This document shows positions 3-25,606 of a stretch of DNA of 25,798 bases, piece by piece; position 1 is the stretch's first letter; every line of letters begins with the position of its first letter. The notes under the pieces were generated by a model. That model had not been told where the DNA came from and did no database searches. It saw only the letters and a program-made list of their open reading frames with translations. The DNA is taken from the IMG/VR virus record IMGVR_UViG_3300002821_000230, one strand, 5' to 3'. Position numbers and translations under genes: made by a program. This stretch comes from a virus.

Positions 3-149
3 CTTGCCTGTATCACAATCCTGCCACTGCTTTCCCAGTTCGGGATCCCGACATGGCTCGGCATGATCATCCAGGGCCCGATCTGGCTTGTGACCATCTG
101 GGGACTGTATCAGTTCCGCAGCGGCTACCAGACGCAGGGGATGGACTGA
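3..149 (+). CDS. C-terminal part of a small membrane protein (5'-partial; probably continues the ORF starting at 25603)
   Basis: Open frame LACITILPLLSQFGIPTWLGMIIQGPIWLVTIWGLYQFRSGYQTQGMD; stop TGA 147-149 overlaps ATG 149 of next gene. Confidence 0.75.
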   Translation, partial: LACITILPLLSQFGIPTWLGMIIQGPIWLVTIWGLYQFRSGYQTQGMD

Positions 150-1897
150 TGAGGCGCCCCGCCCTCGCCCTCCTCCTCGGCTGCCTCCTGCTCGTCGCGG
201 GAGTCTCGGCGCTCGACGGCTACGAATATTACCAGACGATCGAGTACGCCGCCTGCGACCAGGAAGTCTACCAGCAGGACATCGTGATCCACCGCACCAC
301 CGGCACCGCCTACAACGAGACCGCCGGCGGGCTGGAGACCTGGCATATCTATGTCGGGGACCACTGCCGGGAGGATTACGGCGATGTCCGGTTCACCGAC
401 AGCACCGGGGCAGAGCTCGCGTATTATCTCTGGCCGGACTGTACAAGCAGCAGCGCCCGGTTCTGTGTGCGGTTAGAGGGGGCGGATGCGGCCGGGTCGC
501 TGTTCATCTGGTATGGGAACCCGACGGCAACGACGACGAGCGACGGGGATGCGGCGTATCTGTTTTTTGATACATTTGATGGAGATGCTTTAAACTCAAA
601 TAAATGGACAGATTCAGGAAATTCCGGGGAGGTTACAGTTACTAATGGGGAGGCTGTACTGCGTGCGGCTGCCGCCAGTGCAACTTATTACAATCGTTAT
701 ATAACGTCTAAGTCCTCGTTTAGTGGACTCGGAAACATCTCCGTTGAGATCAAAGCCCGGGTTAATCTCAATGGGGCCAATAGGTATGGATCAAGTGTCG
801 CTGCTGGTCGTTCGGATAGATCTTACTACGCGAACGGGGTCTACGGGGCATCTCATAGATTTTCGTATTCAAATACTAAATACTGGTTTGCAGACGGTAC
901 ATCCCTTGCCTCCTCGGTGACCGCGACAAACAACGTAGTATATCGATTTGATATTTACCAGTCCGGGACTCGAGCAGATTATTACGCAGACGGCGTCCGG
1001 GCGTATCAGGGCGAGACCATTACTTTTAGTTCGTTTCCCTATATCGAGCTGTACATCTCAACCTGGGACGCAGGAAACAATCCGAAACTCCACATCGACT
1101 ACGCCCTCGTCCGCGCCTACAGCGCCACCCCGCCCGCTGCCACCGATTTCTCTGGCGAACAGGAAACCCAGGGCCCGCCCATCGTCGGCTTCACCGCAAC
1201 TCCCACCGTCGGCCTTGCCCCGCTAACCGTCCAGTTCAACGACACGTCGCTCCGCAGCCCGACCTCGTGGACCTGGGACTTTGGCGACGGCAGCACTTCA
1301 ACCGACCAGAACCCGGAACACACATACACCGCAGCAGGCACATATTCCGTCAACCTCACCGTCACCAACGAGTACGGCACCGAGTATAAACTAAAACCAG
1401 ACTACATCACCGTCTACAGCCCCGTTACGGCACAGTTCATGGCCGACGTGACTTATGGAGCCCTCCCGCTAACCGTCCAGTTCACTGACGCCTCATCAGG
1501 CAGCCCGACCTCGTGGACCTGGGACTTTGGCGACGGCAACACTTCAACCGACCAGAACCCGGAACACACATACACCTCCACAGGCACATATACCGTAAAA
1601 CTCATCGCGAGCCATCCATATGACTCCGACGAAGAGACAAAAGTCAACTATATCACCGTCGTGACGCTTCAGCCGTTCCCAGGCTGCAGCAGCAACCCGA
1701 CAGACCCAGACTCAGACGGCCTGTATGAAGACATCAACGGCAACGGCCGGTGGGATTTCCAGGATCTCGTCCTGTTTTTCCAGCATCTCACGTGGTGCAA
1801 CGCGAACCAGCCGATCACCCTGTTTGACTGGAACAGCAACTTTAGATGTGATTTTGATGACGTTCACAAACTGTGGCTGGATGGGGGGATGATATGA
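149..1897 (+). CDS. Secreted adhesin: signal peptide, DUF2341-like domain, lectin-like variable domain, 2x PKD, C-terminal dockerin
   Basis: Start corrected to ATG149 (TGATG overlap, MRRPALALLL signal peptide); DYGDVRFTD..LAYY..WYGNP..SDG..FFDTF; two PKD repeats (LTVQFxD..SPTSWTWDFGDG..NPEHTY..GTYxVxL); EF-hand-like dockerin DPDSDGLYEDINGNGRWDFQD...DWNSNFRCDFDD (about 1697-1885). Confidence 0.88.
   Translation: MRRPALALLLGCLLLVAGVSALDGYEYYQTIEYAACDQEVYQQDIVIHRTTGTAYNETAGGLETWHIYVGDHCREDYGDVRFTDSTGAELAYYLWPDCTSSSARFCVRLEGADAAGSLFIWYGNPTATTTSDGDAAYLFFDTFDGDALNSNKWTDSGNSGEVTVTNGEAVLRAAAASATYYNRYITSKSSFSGLGNISVEIKARVNLNGANRYGSSVAAGRSDRSYYANGVYGASHRFSYSNTKYWFADGTSLASSVTATNNVVYRFDIYQSGTRADYYADGVRAYQGETITFSSFPYIELYISTWDAGNNPKLHIDYALVRAYSATPPAATDFSGEQETQGPPIVGFTATPTVGLAPLTVQFNDTSLRSPTSWTWDFGDGSTSTDQNPEHTYTAAGTYSVNLTVTNEYGTEYKLKPDYITVYSPVTAQFMADVTYGALPLTVQFTDASSGSPTSWTWDFGDGNTSTDQNPEHTYTSTGTYTVKLIASHPYDSDEETKVNYITVVTLQPFPGCSSNPTDPDSDGLYEDINGNGRWDFQDLVLFFQHLTWCNANQPITLFDWNSNFRCDFDDVHKLWLDGGMI
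1255..1576 (+). repeat. 76-bp direct repeat pair (1255-1330 and 1501-1576) in the PKD domains
   Basis: 75/76 identical by eye; single G/A difference at 1293/1539; offset 246 nt (82 codons). Confidence 0.9.
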
Positions 1898-2715
1898 GAC
1901 GGCAGGCTCTCGTCCTCGTCGCCCTCCTCCTCCTTGTAGGGATCGCCGCTGCGGACACTCTCACGATCCCGGACGCGGCCCCGTACCAGAACCAGCAGGT
2001 GACCGTTCCCGTAGCACTCACGGCAGCAAACGGGTTGAGTGGTTACAACATCACGTTTTCGGTAGATAACTCGTCCGTGGCACGGATTGATAGCGTAACC
2101 TTCCCGGCCTGGGTCACCCTACACTCGGCCTCGACGACACCGGGCACGACCGTCACCACTGTGGGCGCGGACCTCGGCAACGCCGTCACCGCCCCGGCGA
2201 GCACGACGATCGTCTCCCTGGTGGTGCAGGGTCTCGCGCTCGGCTCGGCAAACCTGACCGCGACCGTCAACCAGATTGATGACGATGCCGGGGGCTCCGT
2301 CACCCCGACGATCAGCTCCGGCACGATCACCGTATCGAGCTCTATCCGGCCCCGGGCCTCCGCGACCATCCCCACGCTCTCAACCGACCTCAAAGACGAC
2401 CTGATCAACTCGCTTGGCGGCGAGACCATCCCGGAGCCTGGCAACGATACAATCAACTGGACGGGACTGATCTCAACCATTGGCGGTGCCTACACATCCG
2501 CGTTAGGTCCGCTTGCGTATACCCTGATCTTCTCGATCCCGTTCCTGATGATGTGGATCACTCAACGGGACATGACATTACCCGGTCTTGTCGGGGCATT
2601 GTTAGGGCTGTTTATAATCGTGCGGTTACCTGCCGAGTTTCATCTGGTCGCCGTGACATTCATCGCGATCAGTATTGTGGCAGTGGTATATTCGCTGGTA
2701 AAGGAGAGGGTGTAA
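1894..2715 (+). CDS. Membrane-anchored cohesin-domain protein (signal peptide, cohesin, C-terminal approx. 3 TM segments)
   Basis: ATG1894 overlaps upstream TGA; MRRQALVLVALLLLVGIAAA signal; archaeal cohesin pattern VTVPV..GLSGYNIT..VARIDSVTFPAW..ADL..IDDDAG..GTITV (about 1954-2334); hydrophobic C-terminus. Confidence 0.8.
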   Translation: MRRQALVLVALLLLVGIAAADTLTIPDAAPYQNQQVTVPVALTAANGLSGYNITFSVDNSSVARIDSVTFPAWVTLHSASTTPGTTVTTVGADLGNAVTAPASTTIVSLVVQGLALGSANLTATVNQIDDDAGGSVTPTISSGTITVSSSIRPRASATIPTLSTDLKDDLINSLGGETIPEPGNDTINWTGLISTIGGAYTSALGPLAYTLIFSIPFLMMWITQRDMTLPGLVGALLGLFIIVRLPAEFHLVAVTFIAISIVAVVYSLVKERV

Positions 2716-5656: not shown

Positions 5657-6125
5657 AGGCAACACCAACGACACGATCAGCGCTGGAGCCGCGGCAAACA
5701 TCGACGACACCCCCAAGGTGTTTGCCGGGCGAAGCGGGATCGATCTATACCTGGCACACATCCTGTTTTCCCTGAACCGGTGGGACTGGATGATTTCAAA
5801 TCTCACAAACACCGGGGATATCAGGATCGTGCCGTTCGCGCGGACGATCATCAGCAAACTGCCTGACAAAGACGTGAAAGTGAAGCTCTTCAAGGCCCTT
5901 AACTCGGACATCCTGGCAGTGAAAAACACCCCCAACAGGTCAACCATCGACAAGGACCAGAAGATACTGGAGATCTGCCAGAACGCGATCTCGGTGGTCT
6001 ATGATCACGTGATCAGGGAGTATGTGCTGAGAGAGACTACTGTTATTCTGCCGATGACACAGGATCCAACCGAGGAGGACGACACAGATGCCGATAGTGT
6101 ACAGACGCCCGACTCAGACGATTGA
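5643..6125 (+). CDS. Hypothetical protein with acidic tail
   Basis: 160 aa, TTG start after GAGGGTGA, overlaps both neighbours. Confidence 0.65.
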   Translation: MRGSRGNTNDTISAGAAANIDDTPKVFAGRSGIDLYLAHILFSLNRWDWMISNLTNTGDIRIVPFARTIISKLPDKDVKVKLFKALNSDILAVKNTPNRSTIDKDQKILEICQNAISVVYDHVIREYVLRETTVILPMTQDPTEEDDTDADSVQTPDSDD

Positions 6126-7179
6126 TCCACTGTATTCCGAGCCAGAACCATCGTCCTCGCTGCAATGGGACATGGTTGCCGACCGGTATGCCGCGCTCTG
6201 TAGCAATTCCAATGGTAATGCCGGTGGCGAACTGAAATTCAGTTCTCTCGCAGAGATGCTTGCCCGGCGTGTGTGCTCTAAATACAACAAAAACGTGATC
6301 TTTGCCATGTTCGGGGAACCAGGCAGCGGCAAATCTATGGCCGCCCTGAGTCTGGCAGAAAGTTGTGCGAAATGGATTGCCAGGTTCCGCGGCGGCAAGC
6401 CTGAAGACTATTTCACGCTCGACAACGTGGCAGTGATACACCCCATAATGTTGCAGGACATGGTCAAGCGCATGCAGAGCCACAATATTTACATCCTTGA
6501 TGATGCGGGTGCCGCATATGACGCCCGAAATTACATGAAACAGGACAACAAGGCTCTGGGATACGTGCTCCAGACGTTTCGGACCTTAAACTCGATCCTG
6601 ATCGTGACAGGCGTTGACGGGGCGATGCTGGATGTCAATCTTCACCGCACCGCGCGGTATTATGCCGAGGTCAGTGAATCACACCACGATCTCGGTTACA
6701 CTGACGTGAAGGTTTTCCGGGCACTCCGGAAGTATCGGCAAAAAACCGTTCATTACAGGTATCTGAACCAGAATATGACGCAGATCATTCGGTATCGAGC
6801 GTATCTGCCAAGCAAGGATCTCATCGAGCCGTATGAGGCGCTCCGGAAAGAGCAGGCGCTCCTGATCCAGACGATGGAAGACCAGGCAGAGAAGAAGAAA
6901 CAGGAGGATCTGAAAAAGCAGCAGGAGGCAAGGGAACAGGAGAAGATCCGGAAACAGGAGGAACTGAGGGAGAAAAAGAGACAGAGGAAACCAGGAGGCG
7001 TTTTACTCACATGCCAAATATGTGGGCATGAGTGGAACTACAAAGGCAAGAAGGTCAAGAATGCCACCTGTCCTGACTGCTCTAGTAAGGTGCCAATCAA
7101 CGGTTACCAGCGCACTGAAGGCTCCACCACCACCAGAACTATTATCCCTACCACCACAGAGGTACCGTCTAGCTGTTAA
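6088..7179 (+). CDS. P-loop ATPase (Zot/AAA-like; candidate packaging or extrusion ATPase) with coiled coil and C-terminal Zn ribbon
   Basis: Walker A GEPGSGKS, Walker B IYILDD; K/E/Q-rich coil; CQIC...CPDC; GAGGAGG RBS. Confidence 0.85.
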   Translation: MPIVYRRPTQTIDPLYSEPEPSSSLQWDMVADRYAALCSNSNGNAGGELKFSSLAEMLARRVCSKYNKNVIFAMFGEPGSGKSMAALSLAESCAKWIARFRGGKPEDYFTLDNVAVIHPIMLQDMVKRMQSHNIYILDDAGAAYDARNYMKQDNKALGYVLQTFRTLNSILIVTGVDGAMLDVNLHRTARYYAEVSESHHDLGYTDVKVFRALRKYRQKTVHYRYLNQNMTQIIRYRAYLPSKDLIEPYEALRKEQALLIQTMEDQAEKKKQEDLKKQQEAREQEKIRKQEELREKKRQRKPGGVLLTCQICGHEWNYKGKKVKNATCPDCSSKVPINGYQRTEGSTTTRTIIPTTTEVPSSC

Positions 7180-20330: not shown

Positions 20331-22757
20331 ATGGGTTTACTTGACGCCATAACAGGCTGGGCCAAAAGTGCCGGGCAGCAGGCGTACCAGAACGTGATCC
20401 GGTCAGGGCAGCGGGGGTACGAGAGTTCCAGACAGGCACACGGTGGTCGATCCCCCACATGGCCGATCGTTACCCAACAGACCCGACAGGCACAACAGGC
20501 CCGGTCTCGCGTGAGTGGTGGCACGACCGGCGGTCGCGAGGTCACCGGGGTAAAAGGGGTCGAGTCGGGTGTATCAAACCCCACAGAGTCGATGTATCTC
20601 TACCCAATCTACACAGCGGCAAAGTCTCTTGCCGAATCTTACAAGAAGAATGTCACAGACAAGTTCTCGGGGTATGTAGAACCTCGACTCAAGGGTCATG
20701 GTGCCTGGGAAACCGTCGGCCAGGCGGCCACCGGGCTCGTCTCATCTCCAGGACTTACAGTCGAGTTCCTCGGCATGATCCCGGCCGGCGCAGAACGGCT
20801 GGCGCGGGAAACCGTCCGGGCCCCCAGCACCCTCCCACAAATGGCAGCATCCGGGCTCGCTTATCAGGCACACGGGATTGCTTCCGGGCTCAAAGAGAAC
20901 CCCGGCCGGACCGCGGGCGAACTCGTCGGGATGGGTCTGGTTACTCACGGGATCACCCGCGGTGCCACCAGGAGCCCGGTCCGTCCCGCCGTGGATGTAG
21001 CAAGGTTCCCGCTTGAATCCCACATCTCGTTCGGCATCAAGACCGCCCCCTCCCGCGGCAAGGTGGTCGGGTTCCAGCCGGTGGTCGGCATCAGCAAAAC
21101 CCCAAAAGGTACCCGCCCAACAGTCGGCACCCCCAGTGTCCGGATTGAGGCTGCACTCGGCGGTGAACGGTTCACGCCGGCAACCCCGCTGGAGACCCGG
21201 ATTGTCCAGAAAGCCCTCGGCGGCCAGGAAGCGGCCAGGATCGGCTATGCGAGGAACGTCCGGAAAGTCACACAGTCGTCCGGGCTCACCCTGAAACAGG
21301 CGACCCCGGTAATCCAGGAGGTCATCACCCAGCACAACATCCCCAACCCCAAGGCGGTATCAAAAGCGATCGCCACCGGGCTCCGGTCCGAGGGCGCACA
21401 ACTCTATGGCAGTGTTGTCCAGCGAGGTATCGGGCAGGAGGCCGGGAAGCCCGGCCTGTCCCGTGTCCCGCGCGACTTCGATATTCAGGTCGCCAACGCC
21501 CAGGCGTTCCAGAGGAAGATCATCAACGACATCAACCGGGCAGCCGGCAGGCAGGTCGTCGCGCCGGAAGGCCGTGGGGGGGTCGTCGTCCGGGAGACCG
21601 GCGCCAAACTTTTCGACATCCACGACCTTGAAACCACTCTCTCTGAACGGCAGTTCACCCCGAAAACTCCATCAGAGTATATCGCGTTCGGGATCAAAGG
21701 AGAGAAACTTGTCCCGACACGAGAAGGCATCCCGGCGATCACTCTCTCGGAGCAGGCGACCCGTAAACTCGAGGGTTCAATGCAGCTCCGGCCGGCCGTG
21801 GAAACCCTCGATGTTCCAGGCTCAACCCTGACACTCAAGGGGCAACTCCTCCCCAAAAGCTCCGGCAGGGTCAAGGACATCTCTGATACCTATTTCGCGG
21901 AAAAACTGGCCATCGACGTGATGAAAGGCAGCAAAAACCCGGTGACGGTTTCCAGGGCAATTGTTGGCGAACAATACCTGAACATGTACCTCGAAACCTG
22001 GGGCGAGGAGGTTGCCGCATCGGTCAGGGCACAGTATGCAAAAGAACTTGCCGGAGGCACACTGTCCGTGAAACTGGCAGATTTCTCCCAACCCGCGGTA
22101 AAGTCACCAGCGGTCCCAGCGGCCAGCGATTTCTACACCGGTGCGGTTGCAATTCAGTCACCATATTATGCTGCGGCATCACCCTCCAGGCCCGGGACCC
22201 CCGCAAGGAGCCCGACCTCGTCATCGATGTATTCCGCAGCATCGGAGATCGCGCGGGGCAGCGGCGTCGGCAGCGGGTCTCTGCTACCATCTCCGTCCCG
22301 GTCGCCGCCTCAGTATAGCCCGCCGGCATACACTCCGCCCTCCTTGTCGTCGGTATACACCACACCTTACTCACCACCTTACTCACCACCTTACTCACCA
22401 CCTTACTCACCACCTTACTCACCACCTTACTCACCACCTTACTCACCACCTTACTCACCACCTTACTCACCACCTTACTCACCACCCTACTCACCACCTT
22501 ACTCACCTCCCTACTCACCTCCCTACTCACCTCCCTACTCACCTCCCTACTCGCCGCCGGTATACACTCCCCCATACATCCCCCAGCAGAAGAGGATCAG
22601 GCCCAAAGACGACCGCAAACTCAGAGCCATTCGTCCCGACCTTTCCCTAACCGGTTTTGACTGGACGGTGACAAACCCGGTGCCGACATGGGAATCTGTC
22701 TTTGGCACCACCAAAACACCGAACCTCACCATAACCCTGTCGGAGTTCAAATTATGA
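20331..22757 (+). CDS. Large multidomain protein: Gly/Ala-rich N-terminus, AbiEii/Pol-beta-like nucleotidyltransferase domain, Ser/Pro-rich region with (YSPP)16
   Basis: ATG20331 after GAGGCGG (track start GTG20325); LYGS (21402) ... RVPRDFD (D at 21474 and 21480) ... KLFDIH ... ITLSEQATRKL ... RVKDISD (21867-21887). Confidence 0.75.
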   Translation: MGLLDAITGWAKSAGQQAYQNVIRSGQRGYESSRQAHGGRSPTWPIVTQQTRQAQQARSRVSGGTTGGREVTGVKGVESGVSNPTESMYLYPIYTAAKSLAESYKKNVTDKFSGYVEPRLKGHGAWETVGQAATGLVSSPGLTVEFLGMIPAGAERLARETVRAPSTLPQMAASGLAYQAHGIASGLKENPGRTAGELVGMGLVTHGITRGATRSPVRPAVDVARFPLESHISFGIKTAPSRGKVVGFQPVVGISKTPKGTRPTVGTPSVRIEAALGGERFTPATPLETRIVQKALGGQEAARIGYARNVRKVTQSSGLTLKQATPVIQEVITQHNIPNPKAVSKAIATGLRSEGAQLYGSVVQRGIGQEAGKPGLSRVPRDFDIQVANAQAFQRKIINDINRAAGRQVVAPEGRGGVVVRETGAKLFDIHDLETTLSERQFTPKTPSEYIAFGIKGEKLVPTREGIPAITLSEQATRKLEGSMQLRPAVETLDVPGSTLTLKGQLLPKSSGRVKDISDTYFAEKLAIDVMKGSKNPVTVSRAIVGEQYLNMYLETWGEEVAASVRAQYAKELAGGTLSVKLADFSQPAVKSPAVPAASDFYTGAVAIQSPYYAAASPSRPGTPARSPTSSSMYSAASEIARGSGVGSGSLLPSPSRSPPQYSPPAYTPPSLSSVYTTPYSPPYSPPYSPPYSPPYSPPYSPPYSPPYSPPYSPPYSPPYSPPYSPPYSPPYSPPYSPPYSPPVYTPPYIPQQKRIRPKDDRKLRAIRPDLSLTGFDWTVTNPVPTWESVFGTTKTPNLTITLSEFKL
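22365..22556 (+). repeat. 12-bp tandem repeat CCTTACTCACCA x16 encoding PYSP
   Basis: First 10 units identical (22365-22484); last 6 carry only synonymous changes. Confidence 0.95.
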
Positions 22758-25606
22758 GACGACAAACTGTTGTTATCCTGGTCGCGCTCCTGGCATTGTG
22801 CCTGCTCGTTGTGCCGGCTGGCGCGTGGCAGGAGGATTTCCAGTCGGGAACGGCGTATGGGTGGACGGCCACTGGTGGCAATGCCGCGGTAGAGCCATAT
22901 CAGCACGTGGATAGATACGCATTGAAAGTTCCCCGGTATACAACCGTGTGGGCCAATCCAGAGCAGAACTTTAATTATCTTGCACTCACGAGCCTGTTTG
23001 GCGATATGCCCTACAAGACAATAAAGATCTACTCAGAAACAGGCACTCTCCTTTGCGATATAGGTATAACCTTTTGGCCGCTCACGGCCCACCGGGTAGA
23101 GGTGGTCTTCACCGGGACCACCGCGAACGTTTATTGTGATGGTCTTTTTGTTAATAGTGTATCATGTAACGGCCAACCCTATAATTTTGCGTATACTAGA
23201 GGCGAGACTACTCCTGATAATGACTGGATCGATGACGTGGTCATCGGCGGCAGCGAACCAGACATTCTCGGCATCATCCCGCCAGGCTGGTATGTCCTCA
23301 AACACCCGACCGATCCGTATGCAAGCGGTCTCCATAGAAGCGACGATACATTCGCCAATCCTCATATAATGCATGCAACCTACGGTCTTGACGACCTGGC
23401 GGACGAAAACACCAGGATCGTGCTGCAACCAATGGGGTCCGGCTATTTCCTCAACACAACCTATCTCCCTGTAGGCGAAAATTTCGGAGTCGTCGCCCTC
23501 AACATCACAGAACTCCTGATAAACAATCCAGATGCCCCACCCGGATACTATTACCTGAAACTGATGCGGGGCGACACCCTCCTGGACTATGGTCTGTTTC
23601 CATACACCAACGGCGGCGGTACGATCTCGTTTGATGCAGACTCTTATGTCTCGACGCAAACCACAACCGTCTCGCACGAGATATCGATCTTCAGCATCCA
23701 GGATTACACTTACAGGGGCCAGATCATTGATATCTATGGCAACGAGAAAACATCGTGGCCGATCACCTCGATGACCGGCACCCATTCTGTTGATCTCACC
23801 GGCTATTCTTCCGGGACATATTTCCTCCTGCTCAAAGCAACCGACCGGGACACCGGTGAGGAATACGTCTTCGATGTCGACCATGCTGAGGTGAACGAGG
23901 AGATCTGGGTCACCGGCACGGCGTATGATGCCGAGACCGGCGAGCCCCTTGAAGGCGTCACCGTGGATATCGGCCAGTTTGGTACCATAACCAGTAACGT
24001 CACCGTGGCGGACGGCAGTTATGCGACCGTTAAAGGGCTGTATGCCGACAACCCGATCACCGTCAACGCGAGCAAAGCCGGGTACACCCACAACAACTTC
24101 TCGTTTACGCCGCTGGGTAACGGTCTCAAGACGGTTAACCTGTACCTGATCCCGTCTCCCCCCAATTTCACCGGCGCGGCGGCCATCGGGGGCCTGGTCC
24201 ACGACATACCATACCGGCAGCCGGTCGGCGGGGCGACCGTCACGATCGCAAACGGCACCTGGAGCAACACAACGATTGCCAACACCACCGGGTACTACAT
24301 CTTTTCAGATCTTGCCGTGAACGAATCCTATAATGTCAATTCAACCCTTGTCGGGTATCAACCTTCGGCAGTATACTCGGCAACGACTCAAAACGAGACC
24401 TTTGTGAGGCAGGATATAGAGATGAGCGGACTCTACACGCTCACACTCGAACTCAGGGACGCCACCGACCACAGCCTGATCACTACCAGCATGACTGTAG
24501 AGGCAGATGATGCCACAAACGTCACCACAAACGGGCAAACTACGTTCCACAACCTTGATTATGGCATTGTTACGGTCACCGTCTCCGGCAACGACGACTA
24601 TTATGGCGTCTCTGAGAACATCCTGGTCGAAGAGGATACCCTCAAAACGATCTATCTCACCCGCAAGACAGAGAGTACCCCGTTTGCCTATCCGCCGCAC
24701 AATGTCCGGTTTATCGTCAGGTCAGCGTTTGGTGCCCCTATCGAAGGTGTTACCGTTGAGGCTACCGGTTACGAGACCACAATGGGCAGTTTTTCGTGGT
24801 TGTTTGACCTGCTCGGTATAGATTACGAGAAGACACAGGTTCACAACCAGACGATGAACGGCACCACCGGCAGCGATGGCGGCATCGATTTCATGATGTT
24901 TGAGGCGATCAAGTATCGGCTCACATTTTACAAGGACGGAGTGATCAATACCACCTGGGAAGGTTTTCCAAAAGACGAGTATTACACCATCTGGGCGCCG
25001 ACGGTTGGCCCGTCCGAGTGGTTTGAGTACGGAGTCAACCCGTTGGAGGCGGTCAACTTCACCGTCACGGGAACCACCGCCACCGAGGATGAGGCAACCA
25101 TCACCGTCCACTACAACGACACGCTCGGAGAGACTACCAGCGCGGCGGTATACCTGAACCAGACGTTTACCAACGGCACCGAGATACTGGTCAGCCAGTA
25201 TCTTGGCGGAACCGCACACACCTGGAACCATACATTCACTCTCGATGGCGACCACCGGGGTGAGAGTTATCTCGTCCATCTGCGGGCCCAGCACGGGACA
25301 CTCGGCAACATCACCCGCGATTTTGGTGTCTATTTCAAGCCGGCACCGATCTCGTTTGGCCTGCCCGAAGACCTCCTCCTGTATGGCGCGATGGCGGTGA
25401 TGATATTTACCGCGCTCTTCTTCGGCCAGAGTTCCGTGGGGGCGGGCTGTATTGTGTTCGCGTTTGAGGGCTGGCTTTTCTACTGGATAGGCTGGCTCCA
25501 GGATCTCGGTAGTGAGTACGCGGTCGGCACAGCACTCATCATCATCAGTGTGGTGGCGGTTCTGGTGAACGTGATGCAACGATCCAAGCGGGAGCGATAC
25601 GCATGA
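22754..25606 (+). CDS. Large glycosylated adhesin/terminal-fibre-like protein (signal peptide, CarboxypepD_reg-like beta-sandwich repeats, C-terminal approx. 3 TM anchor)
   Basis: Start corrected to ATG22754 (ATGA overlap); MRRQTVVILVALLALCLLVVPAGA; repeats such as VTGTAYDAETGEPLEGVTV..ASKAGY and IGGLVHD..QPVGGATV; about 20 N-x-S/T sequons. Confidence 0.85.
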   Translation: MRRQTVVILVALLALCLLVVPAGAWQEDFQSGTAYGWTATGGNAAVEPYQHVDRYALKVPRYTTVWANPEQNFNYLALTSLFGDMPYKTIKIYSETGTLLCDIGITFWPLTAHRVEVVFTGTTANVYCDGLFVNSVSCNGQPYNFAYTRGETTPDNDWIDDVVIGGSEPDILGIIPPGWYVLKHPTDPYASGLHRSDDTFANPHIMHATYGLDDLADENTRIVLQPMGSGYFLNTTYLPVGENFGVVALNITELLINNPDAPPGYYYLKLMRGDTLLDYGLFPYTNGGGTISFDADSYVSTQTTTVSHEISIFSIQDYTYRGQIIDIYGNEKTSWPITSMTGTHSVDLTGYSSGTYFLLLKATDRDTGEEYVFDVDHAEVNEEIWVTGTAYDAETGEPLEGVTVDIGQFGTITSNVTVADGSYATVKGLYADNPITVNASKAGYTHNNFSFTPLGNGLKTVNLYLIPSPPNFTGAAAIGGLVHDIPYRQPVGGATVTIANGTWSNTTIANTTGYYIFSDLAVNESYNVNSTLVGYQPSAVYSATTQNETFVRQDIEMSGLYTLTLELRDATDHSLITTSMTVEADDATNVTTNGQTTFHNLDYGIVTVTVSGNDDYYGVSENILVEEDTLKTIYLTRKTESTPFAYPPHNVRFIVRSAFGAPIEGVTVEATGYETTMGSFSWLFDLLGIDYEKTQVHNQTMNGTTGSDGGIDFMMFEAIKYRLTFYKDGVINTTWEGFPKDEYYTIWAPTVGPSEWFEYGVNPLEAVNFTVTGTTATEDEATITVHYNDTLGETTSAAVYLNQTFTNGTEILVSQYLGGTAHTWNHTFTLDGDHRGESYLVHLRAQHGTLGNITRDFGVYFKPAPISFGLPEDLLLYGAMAVMIFTALFFGQSSVGAGCIVFAFEGWLFYWIGWLQDLGSEYAVGTALIIISVVAVLVNVMQRSKRERYA

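What the first reader, a model, noticed from the sequence alone, without database searches (positions are those of the whole stretch)
149..2715. Virus-encoded cohesin-dockerin pair: a plug-in receptor-binding system
A secreted adhesin with no membrane anchor ends in a dockerin, and the translationally coupled next gene is a cohesin with a multi-TM anchor. Cohesin-dockerin is the established high-affinity, Ca-dependent coupling of cellulosomes and also occurs in archaeal surface proteins. Inference: the cohesin anchors the adhesin on the virion, so adhesins could be swapped or host dockerin proteins captured. Alternatively the dockerin binds host cohesins as a receptor. I know of no characterised viral use of this pair, though I cannot search the literature.
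Basis: partly seen in the sequence, partly recalled or inferred. Interest (0 to 1): 0.85.

Follow-up and report, generated by a model that had tools for sequence, protein, structure and literature searches.

The report
Virus adhesin clipped on by cohesin-dockerin
A probable virus of methane-producing archaea splits its surface adhesin into a secreted binding protein ending in a dockerin "plug" and an anchored protein carrying a cohesin "socket"; close relatives have the same two halves fused into one protein, so the plug and socket most likely replace a peptide bond.

Summary
Gene 1 (149-1897) encodes a signal peptide, DUF2341, a variable lectin-like domain, two PKD domains and a C-terminal double Ca-loop module. 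Gene 2 (1894-2715, ATGA overlap) encodes a signal peptide, a beta-sandwich and three hydrophobic C-terminal helices.

- **Cohesin:** Pfam misses it, but an AlphaFold2 model (pLDDT 95) matches only cohesins in the PDB (TM 0.73-0.79).
- **Dockerin:** Pfam misses it and the fold model failed. A profile of it hits, at 60-105 bits, C-termini that Pfam calls Dockerin_1.
- **New evidence, fusion:** in the same syntenic slot, relative P0012 is gene 1 residues 1-344 (89% identical) fused directly to gene 2 residues 150-273 (94%).
- **New evidence, scars:** at least three fused forms keep cohesin last-strand remnants of different lengths at the junction. I read these as scars of independent deletions.
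- **New evidence, head swaps:** relatives carry unrelated heads on a 100%-identical dockerin.
- **Conservation:** the pair persists in six viral lineages, down to about 27% core-protein identity.

The modules derive from a large Methanomicrobiales cohesin-dockerin system, so cross-talk with host proteins stays open.

The scan noted the same pair on other DNA (e1-5771589 and others). I found no published viral precedent in the held library.

The parts
149..1897 (+). Gene 1: secreted adhesin, 582 aa (signal peptide, DUF2341, variable lectin-like domain, PKD, PKD, dockerin). It has no membrane anchor.
   Evidence: ORF and translation; Pfam; hydropathy.
374..610 (+). DUF2341 domain (residues 76-154)
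   Evidence: Pfam PF10102, E 2.4e-20.
644..1183 (+). Variable central head domain (residues about 166-345), the probable receptor-binding part. No Pfam match.
   Evidence: Relatives with a 100%-identical dockerin have unrelated sequence here. A distant relative, P0037, carries Laminin_G_3 in its head.
1199..1639 (+). Two PKD domains (residues 351-422 and 431-497), a spacer stalk
   Evidence: Pfam PKD_4 and PKD, E 1e-35 and 2e-26. Absent from several dockerin-bearing relatives.
1670..1894 (+). Dockerin module (residues 508-582): two Ca-loop plus helix segments, DINGNGRWDFQD.. and DWNSNFRCDFDD..
   Evidence: Motifs. A profile of it matches 53 C-termini of cohesin-family proteins, most at 60-105 bits. 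Several of these are Pfam Dockerin_1 above cutoff. It is 65% identical to cellular P0170. The AF2 model has low confidence.
1894..2715 (+). Gene 2: anchored cohesin protein, 273 aa. Its start overlaps the gene 1 stop as ATGA.
1954..2340 (+). Cohesin domain (residues 21-149)
   Evidence: AF2 pLDDT 94.9. All listed Foldseek PDB matches are cohesins or cohesin-like modules, including A. fulgidus 2xdh at 21% identity and TM 0.76-0.78. Pfam Cohesin match is full length but sub-threshold.
2341..2712 (+). Conserved anchor module (residues 150-273): a linker (RPRASATIP...) plus three hydrophobic helices
   Evidence: 90-97% identical in relatives whose N-terminal parts differ completely. Hydropathy.

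Best explanation
Both proteins are exported by their signal peptides. Gene 2 stays fixed through its C-terminal three-helix hydrophobic module. This module most likely sits in the virion coat near the MCP-like proteins encoded just downstream, and exposes a cohesin on the outside. The gene 1 adhesin has no anchor of its own. Its C-terminal dockerin binds that cohesin, presumably with Ca2+, so the DUF2341/lectin-like head is displayed on a PKD stalk as the receptor-binding protein.

The coupling was borrowed from the cohesin-dockerin surface system of Methanomicrobiales hosts. It stands in for a peptide bond: in close relatives the same head is fused directly to the same anchor.

Shown here: the domain identities, translational coupling, synteny, the fusions and their junction remnants, the head swaps, and purifying selection. 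Inferred: the binding itself, Ca dependence, the virion location, and the role in host recognition.
For: 1. **Cohesin fold.** AF2 pLDDT 94.9; all listed Foldseek PDB hits are cohesins or cohesin-like modules, most at TM 0.73-0.79.
2. **Dockerin.** A profile of the viral C-terminus matches 53 of 148 cohesin-family proteins, 52 of them at the extreme C-terminus and most at 60-105 bits. Those tails hit Pfam Dockerin_1: P0163 32.6 bits, P0138 25.8, P0090 24.9, P0155 24.1, against a cutoff of 22.9.
3. **Fusion relative.** P0012 (468 aa) equals gene 1 residues 1-344 at 89% identity plus gene 2 residues 150-273 at 94%. It lies in the same slot, between the 121-aa and 48-aa genes.
4. **Junction remnants.** Fused forms keep cohesin last-strand remnants of different lengths: P0008 VTPTISSGTITVSSSI, P0009 ISSGTITV, P0010 TVSSSI. 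P0012 keeps only SI, too short to count as a remnant. This implies several independent split-to-fused deletions.
5. **Slot variety.** The same slot holds the gene pair, a fused head-anchor gene, or an anchor-only gene.
6. **Co-occurrence.** In 36 loci and the window, 16 sequences carry a cohesin-anchor gene and each has a dockerin ORF directly upstream (12, 2, L041, L052). Six lineages are represented: window type, L034, L001, L003, L052 and the distant L041, whose core proteins are 26-38% identical. None of the 21 loci whose anchor gene lacks a cohesin has a dockerin.
7. **Head swaps.** A 100%-identical dockerin sits on unrelated central head domains in P0024, P0025, P0026 and P0028.
8. **Selection.** dN/dS is 0.08-0.18 for the dockerin and 0.30-0.35 for the cohesin.
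9. **Count.** There is one dockerin and one cohesin in the whole window.
10. **Structural analogy.** In SSV19 the tailspike VP4 and the adaptor B210 are beta-sandwich plus C-terminal three-helix bundle proteins on which the MCP stacks (PMC9351363). Gene 2 has a comparable layout and lies two genes upstream of two MCP-like hairpin proteins.
Against: - **Domain calls.** Neither viral module reaches a Pfam cutoff on its own. The dockerin fold model is uninformative (pLDDT 50).
- **Linkage.** The pair is adjacent, so its co-occurrence and co-loss are partly explained by linkage. A single deletion removes both.
- **Head not essential.** Anchor-only relatives (156-161 aa) show that the anchor has a role of its own and that the head is dispensable in some lineages.
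- **Exceptions.** In two short contigs of a divergent lineage (L050, L051) the gene upstream of a cohesin-anchor gene is a membrane protein, not a dockerin protein.
- **Host cross-talk.** The viral dockerin is as close to a cellular dockerin (65%) as to those of other viral lineages, so host cohesins could compete.
- **Viral nature.** No capsid homology was detected by sequence, so the viral nature and the virion location rest on gene content.
Confidence: 0.62

Rival explanations
1. The two modules work with host partners rather than with each other. The viral dockerin docks onto cohesins on the host surface and so acts as the receptor-binding element. The viral cohesin, or both modules, captures host dockerin-bearing surface proteins. 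This can also coexist with the main explanation.
For: - The cohesin family is found in 67 of 201 sampled genomes of the order that holds the Methanoregula MAG, often in many copies. One 958-aa frame has six tandem matches.
- 53 of 148 family representatives end in the same type of dockerin.
- The viral dockerin is 65% identical to that of cellular P0170, a DUF2341-PKD-cohesin-dockerin protein.
- In L050 and L051 a cohesin-anchor gene has no dockerin gene directly upstream.
Against: - Fused relatives discard both dockerin and cohesin yet keep the head on the anchor. The head, not the dockerin, is therefore the retained outward-facing part.
- The one MAG that carries a related viral contig has no other cohesin or dockerin match. 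Binning is weak host evidence, however.
- The viral dockerins share lineage-specific residues (RWD, RCDFDD, C-terminal GGMI) that cellular ones lack.
Confidence: 0.15
2. The pair is displayed on the infected or lysogenic cell membrane rather than on particles. It could change cell adhesion, aggregation or superinfection. Alternatively the element is a plasmid or vesicle-forming element and not a virus.
For: - Both proteins have Sec signal peptides, and the anchor looks like ordinary TM helices.
- No capsid protein is recognised by Pfam, PHROGs, PDB or tblastn.
- The element has a tyrosine integrase.
Against: - The genes sit in a translationally coupled block with two small double-helix hydrophobic proteins carrying N-glycosylation sequons. 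That is the layout of spindle-virus MCPs (SSV19 VP1 in PMC9351363).
- The DnaA-like ATPase finds as its only phage-database match the lemon-shaped Haloferax virus LSV-48N.
- Contigs of about 26 kb recur in independent metagenomes.
- Hypervariable heads on a conserved anchor are typical of receptor-binding proteins.
Confidence: 0.15
3. The modules are inherited leftovers of a captured host surface protein and no longer bind anything.
For: Neither reaches a Pfam cutoff. Deleting them is tolerated.
Against: - Purifying selection acts on both.
- All Ca-ligand positions are kept in both loops.
- The pair is retained in lineages whose core proteins are only 26-38% identical.
- The cohesin model is very confident.
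Confidence: 0.05

Closest known systems
Non-cellulosomal archaeal cohesin-dockerin modules (Archaeoglobus fulgidus cohesin, PDB 2xdh; ANME and methanogen surface proteins, PMC9012536)
   Same: The cohesin has the same beta-sandwich fold (TM 0.76-0.78 and 21% identity to 2xdh). The dockerin has the same double Ca-loop of the PTDPDxDGLYEDxNGNGRxDFxD type. Both are extracellular and unrelated to cellulose degradation.
   Different: The pair is encoded by a virus-like element. It is split over two translationally coupled genes. The cohesin is attached to a virus-specific three-helix anchor instead of a PGF-CTERM tail or a following dockerin.
Cellulosome anchoring scaffoldins with type I cohesin-dockerin (C. 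thermocellum 1ohz, 2ccl, OlpA 3ul4)
   Same: The logic is the same: an anchored cohesin holds a secreted dockerin-tagged protein. These are the top structural matches.
   Different: Sequence identity is only 9-17%. There is no SLH domain, one socket rather than an array, and the cargo is an adhesin rather than an enzyme.
Fusellovirus SSV19 tail proteins VP4 and B210 (PMC9351363)
   Same: The architecture is similar: an outward beta-sandwich or head plus a C-terminal three-helix hydrophobic module that seats the protein among the MCP hairpins. The variable outer parts serve host recognition.
   Different: No sequence similarity was detected. The fold of the anchor was not tested. In SSV19 the tailspike is one covalent chain.
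Modular receptor-binding proteins of tailed phages that attach through conserved docking domains or adaptor proteins (from my own knowledge; see also scan note e1-1265223 on a prophage tail fibre ending in a dockerin)
   Same: A conserved attachment module is combined with exchangeable binding heads.
   Different: Here the attachment module is a bona fide cohesin-dockerin pair taken from the host surface system, and both partners are virus-encoded.

Membership tests
Cohesin (Pfam PF00963, type I-like) | Nine-stranded flattened beta-sandwich (jelly-roll) fold | tested here: met
   AF2 pLDDT 94.9 with ten strand segments assigned. All listed Foldseek PDB hits are cohesins or cohesin-like modules, probability 1.00, most at TM 0.73-0.79.
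Cohesin (Pfam PF00963, type I-like) | Sequence match above the Pfam gathering score | tested here: not met
   14.5 bits against a cutoff of 24.1, although the match is full length (3-139 of 139). None of 36 family members scores at E<=1e-3. A PDB profile search finds nothing.
Cohesin (Pfam PF00963, type I-like) | Binds a cognate dockerin | not testable with these tools
The indirect support is the fusion relatives.
Dockerin type I (Pfam PF00404) | Two duplicated segments of about 22 residues, each a Ca-binding loop (ligands at positions 1, 3, 5, 9, 12) followed by a helix | tested here: met
   DINGNGRWDFQD and DWNSNFRCDFDD, starts 32 residues apart. Helices are predicted after each loop, though at low confidence.
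Dockerin type I (Pfam PF00404) | Sequence match above the Pfam gathering score | tested here: inconclusive
   There is no direct hit. The link is transitive: the viral profile hits P0163 at 78 bits, and P0163 hits Dockerin_1 at 32.6 bits against a cutoff of 22.9.
Dockerin type I (Pfam PF00404) | Dockerin fold | tested here: inconclusive
   AF2 pLDDT 50.5 from a 10-sequence alignment. No fold search was attempted on it.
Spindle-shaped archaeal virus (Fuselloviridae-like) | Small MCP made of two hydrophobic helices; DnaA-like ATPase; integrase | tested here: inconclusive
   Two proteins of 87 and 84 aa have two hydrophobic helices and NxT sequons, but no sequence match to known MCPs. The ATPase hits PHROG DnaA-like families and LSV-48N. 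The integrase hits PF00589.
SSV19 B210/VP4-type tail anchoring module | C-terminal Z-shaped three-helix bundle contacting the MCP | not tested
   Only three hydrophobic helices are seen by hydropathy.

The most novel reading that the evidence does not exclude
The non-covalent coupling lets adhesins be exchanged in trans. Any dockerin-tagged head made in the same cell could load onto the particle. Sources could be a co-infecting relative or the host's own DUF2341-PKD-cohesin-dockerin surface proteins, whose dockerins are up to 65% identical. This would give phenotypic mixing of host range without recombination, a form of pseudotyping not described for archaeal viruses.
Probability: 0.25. Interest if true: 0.85.

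Novelty: new variant of a known kind. Interest (0 to 1): 0.72.

Why it matters
Cohesin-dockerin is a textbook extracellular coupling, known from cellulosomes and from poorly understood archaeal surface proteins. Here a virus-like element appears to use it to mount its adhesin.

Nature has supplied the control. The same head and anchor also occur covalently fused in close relatives.

If binding is confirmed, three things follow:
- It would be the first natural viral use of this pair that I could find.
- It would give a concrete function to one archaeal cohesin-dockerin pair.
- It would explain how these methanogen viruses shuffle host-recognition heads.

It would also offer a compact, naturally orthogonal plug-and-socket for display technology. 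Methanogen viruses matter for anaerobic digesters and methane cycling, and their entry machinery is essentially unknown.

Tried and rejected
- **AF2 of the dockerin tail:** pLDDT 50.5, so it was not used for a fold search.
- **Direct family and structure searches:** Pfam and NCBIfam on both proteins, and PDB sequence and profile searches, gave no significant cohesin or dockerin hit.
- **Phage database:** megablast of the window and tblastn of gene 2 found nothing.
- **IMG/VR:** scans with the anchor and with gene 2 found no relatives.
- **Anchor module:** searches against the PDB and the ESM Atlas were uninformative.
- **MCP candidate:** searches against the phage database and the PDB found nothing.
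- **Whole genome:** none is held for the window.
- **Considered and rejected: fused forms as assembly chimeras.** They occur with different junctions in different samples and in intact synteny. P0007, which joins the first 53 residues of gene 1 to mid-cohesin, may be a chimera or a defective variant and was not used as evidence.
Full report
**1. What is in the sequence**

Two genes on the + strand overlap as ATGA. Gene 1 runs from ATG 149 to the stop at 1895-1897 (582 aa). Gene 2 runs from ATG 1894 to 2715 (273 aa) and is preceded by a G-rich stretch.

They belong to a chain of coupled genes. The upstream 121-aa membrane protein spans the junction of the window ends, and its stop overlaps the gene 1 start as TGATG.

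Gene 1 has these parts:
- a signal peptide;
- DUF2341 (residues 76-154);
- an unassigned central domain;
- two PKD domains;
- no hydrophobic segment after the signal peptide;
- a C-terminal tail with two loops, DINGNGRWDFQD and DWNSNFRCDFDD, whose starts are 32 residues apart.

Gene 2 has a signal peptide, a domain of about 130 residues, a linker, and three hydrophobic helices at about 203-222, 229-243 and 249-268.

**2. Is gene 2 a cohesin?**

Pfam gives only a sub-threshold match, though it is full length (14.5 bits against a cutoff of 24.1).

An exhaustive phmmer search with residues 18-160 found 893 relatives at E<=1e-3. None of 36 sampled relatives is called Cohesin by Pfam at E<=1e-3.

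An AlphaFold2 model built on that alignment is very confident (pLDDT 94.9). Every listed Foldseek match in the PDB is a cohesin or cohesin-like module, at probability 1.00 and mostly TM 0.73-0.79. They include the archaeal non-cellulosomal cohesin 2xdh (21% identity). The fold is therefore a cohesin, from a divergent archaeal subfamily.

**3. Is the gene 1 tail a dockerin?**

Pfam does not hit it directly, and the AF2 model is unusable (pLDDT 50.5).

A profile built from nine viral tails was searched against the 148 proteins that had been found through the cohesin domain alone:
- 53 match at E<=1e-3, and 52 of those matches lie at the extreme C-terminus.
- Most matches cover nearly the full profile at 60-105 bits.
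- The median gap after the last cohesin is 5 residues.

Pfam recognises those tails as Dockerin_1. P0163 scores 32.6 bits, and P0138, P0090 and P0155 score 24-26 bits, against a cutoff of 22.9.

The viral tail is 65% identical to the tail of P0170, a cellular-type DUF2341-PKD-cohesin-dockerin protein. Both loops keep all the Ca-ligand positions. I accept it as a dockerin of the archaeal PTDPDxDGLYEDxNGNGRxDFxD type.

**4. Do the two proteins work together?**

The anchor part of gene 2 (residues 150-273) is 90-97% identical in metagenomic proteins whose N-terminal parts are completely different.

Context look-ups show that all of them occupy the same slot, between a 121-aa membrane-protein gene and a 48- to 51-aa gene. 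That slot lies upstream of two small hairpin-like hydrophobic proteins and a DnaA-like ATPase. The slot holds one of three things:
- the dockerin gene plus the cohesin-anchor gene;
- one gene in which a head is fused directly to the anchor (442, 436 or 468 aa, and open frames up to about 1,300 codons);
- the anchor alone (156-161 aa).

The most telling relative is P0012. Its residues 1-344 match gene 1 residues 1-344 at 89% identity. Its residues 345-468 match gene 2 residues 150-273 at 94% identity. Compared with P0012, the window has PKD-PKD-dockerin, a stop and start, a signal peptide and a cohesin inserted exactly at the head-anchor junction.

Fused forms differ at the junction and keep remnants of the cohesin's last strand of different lengths:
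- P0008 keeps VTPTISSGTITVSSSI.
- P0009 keeps ISSGTITV.
- P0010 keeps TVSSSI.
- P0012 keeps only SI, which is too short to count as a remnant.

Fusion therefore arose several times by deletion from the split form. Each time the head stayed joined to the anchor.

**5. Census of related loci**

I scanned 36 related loci and the window with HMMs for anchor, cohesin and dockerin.

- Sixteen of these sequences carry a cohesin-anchor gene, and each has a dockerin-ending ORF directly upstream (12, 2, L041, L052).
- They fall into six lineages: the window type, L034, L001/L002, L003, L052, and the distant L041, whose core proteins are only 26-38% identical to the window's.
- None of the 21 loci whose anchor gene lacks a cohesin contains a dockerin in the sequence held.
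- The window has exactly one of each.

Dockerin, cohesin and anchor diverge together across lineages. Both modules are under purifying selection, with dN/dS of 0.08-0.18 for the dockerin and 0.30-0.35 for the cohesin; dS is near saturation.

Relatives with a 100%-identical dockerin and second PKD domain carry unrelated central head domains.

**6. Caveats**

- The two genes are adjacent, so co-occurrence and co-loss are not independent events.
- Anchor-only relatives show that the anchor has a function of its own.
- In two short contigs of a divergent lineage (L050, L051) the gene upstream of a cohesin-anchor gene is the membrane protein, not a dockerin protein. Its partner, if any, is encoded elsewhere or comes from the host.

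**7. Origin and host**

- The nearest named cellular cohesin relative is from Methanofollis formosanus.
- A related viral contig is binned in a Methanoregula MAG. That MAG has no other cohesin or dockerin match.
- The cohesin family occurs in 67 of 201 sampled genomes of that order. It is often multi-copy, with six tandem matches in one 958-aa frame.
- Some short family members end in PGF-CTERM. These look like cell-surface anchoring cohesins.

The virus seems to have taken a host anchoring cohesin and replaced its tail with its own anchor. It put the matching dockerin on an adhesin whose domain set (DUF2341, PKD) also mirrors host surface proteins.

**8. Where does the anchor sit?**

The element is probably a virus:
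- It is a circular element of about 26 kb that recurs in independent digester metagenomes.
- It encodes two MCP-like hairpin proteins with NxT sequons.
- Its DnaA-like ATPase has only one phage-database match, the lemon-shaped Haloferax virus LSV-48N.
- It encodes an integrase.

No capsid homology was detected by sequence.

In the fusellovirus SSV19, the tailspike VP4 and the adaptor B210 each carry a beta-sandwich and end in a Z-shaped three-helix bundle. The bundles form a ring that seats the tail on the capsid, and the MCP stacks on the VP4 bundle (PMC9351363).

Gene 2 (beta-sandwich plus three hydrophobic helices) and the neighbouring 972-aa protein (signal peptide, CarboxypepD_reg domain, hydrophobic C-terminal helices) have comparable layouts. 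I therefore propose a tail-end location. This is an analogy and was not tested.

**9. Novelty**

Five full-text searches found no paper describing a virus-encoded cohesin-dockerin pair. Background on archaeal cohesin-dockerin proteins is in PMC9012536.

The scan itself noted the same pair on other DNA (e1-5771589 and several first-reader notes). Those notes are not independent evidence.

I class this as a new variant of a known kind: a known coupling in a new biological role, with unusually good comparative support, but with no biochemical or virion data.

Noticed in passing
window 22688-25606: The 972-aa protein has a signal peptide (probable start at the internal MRRQTVV..), a CarboxypepD_reg domain and hydrophobic C-terminal helices at about 895-913 and 940-966. 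Its mature N-terminus (AWQEDFQSGTAYGWT) recurs at the start of the heads fused to the anchor in P0013 and P0017. It may be a VP4-like tailspike.
   Followed up: partly
L050:560-1657 and L051:214-1299: A divergent lineage has a cohesin, an extra domain of about 130 aa and an anchor (361-365 aa). Its upstream gene is the membrane protein rather than a dockerin protein. The contigs are too short to locate a partner.
   Followed up: partly
P0049 (517 aa, no DNA available): A protein with the viral-type anchor and two cohesin-like stretches, possibly a two-socket viral scaffoldin.
   Followed up: no
G178:C10:30417-33721 and other Methanomicrobiales genomes: Tandem arrays of this cohesin subfamily, with six matches in one 958-aa frame. 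The family is present in 67 of 201 sampled genomes of the order and is mostly invisible to Pfam Cohesin. This is scaffoldin-like architecture in methanogens.
   Followed up: partly
P0007 (227 aa): The first 53 residues of a gene 1-like protein are joined in frame to the middle of the cohesin (from TAPASTTIVSL). This is either a defective deletion variant or an assembly chimera.
   Followed up: no
L033 (JAKPPK010000459.1): A 1.2-kb contig 95% identical to gene 2 is binned in a 'Candidatus Latescibacterota' MAG, almost certainly a binning error. L034 is binned in a Methanoregula MAG.
   Followed up: no
window 6088-7179: The 363-aa AAA+ ATPase matches PHROG DnaA-like families. Its only tblastn match in the phage collection is the DnaA-like gene of lemon-shaped Haloferax virus LSV-48N (24% identity, E 8e-5).
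   Followed up: partly
L036:3396-8666 (Halobaculum sp. EA56): A 1757-aa open frame (stop to stop) in a haloarchaeon ends in the same cohesin-dockerin tandem (cohesin 1552-1685, dockerin 1689-1754). This subfamily pair therefore spans methanogens and haloarchaea.
   Followed up: no
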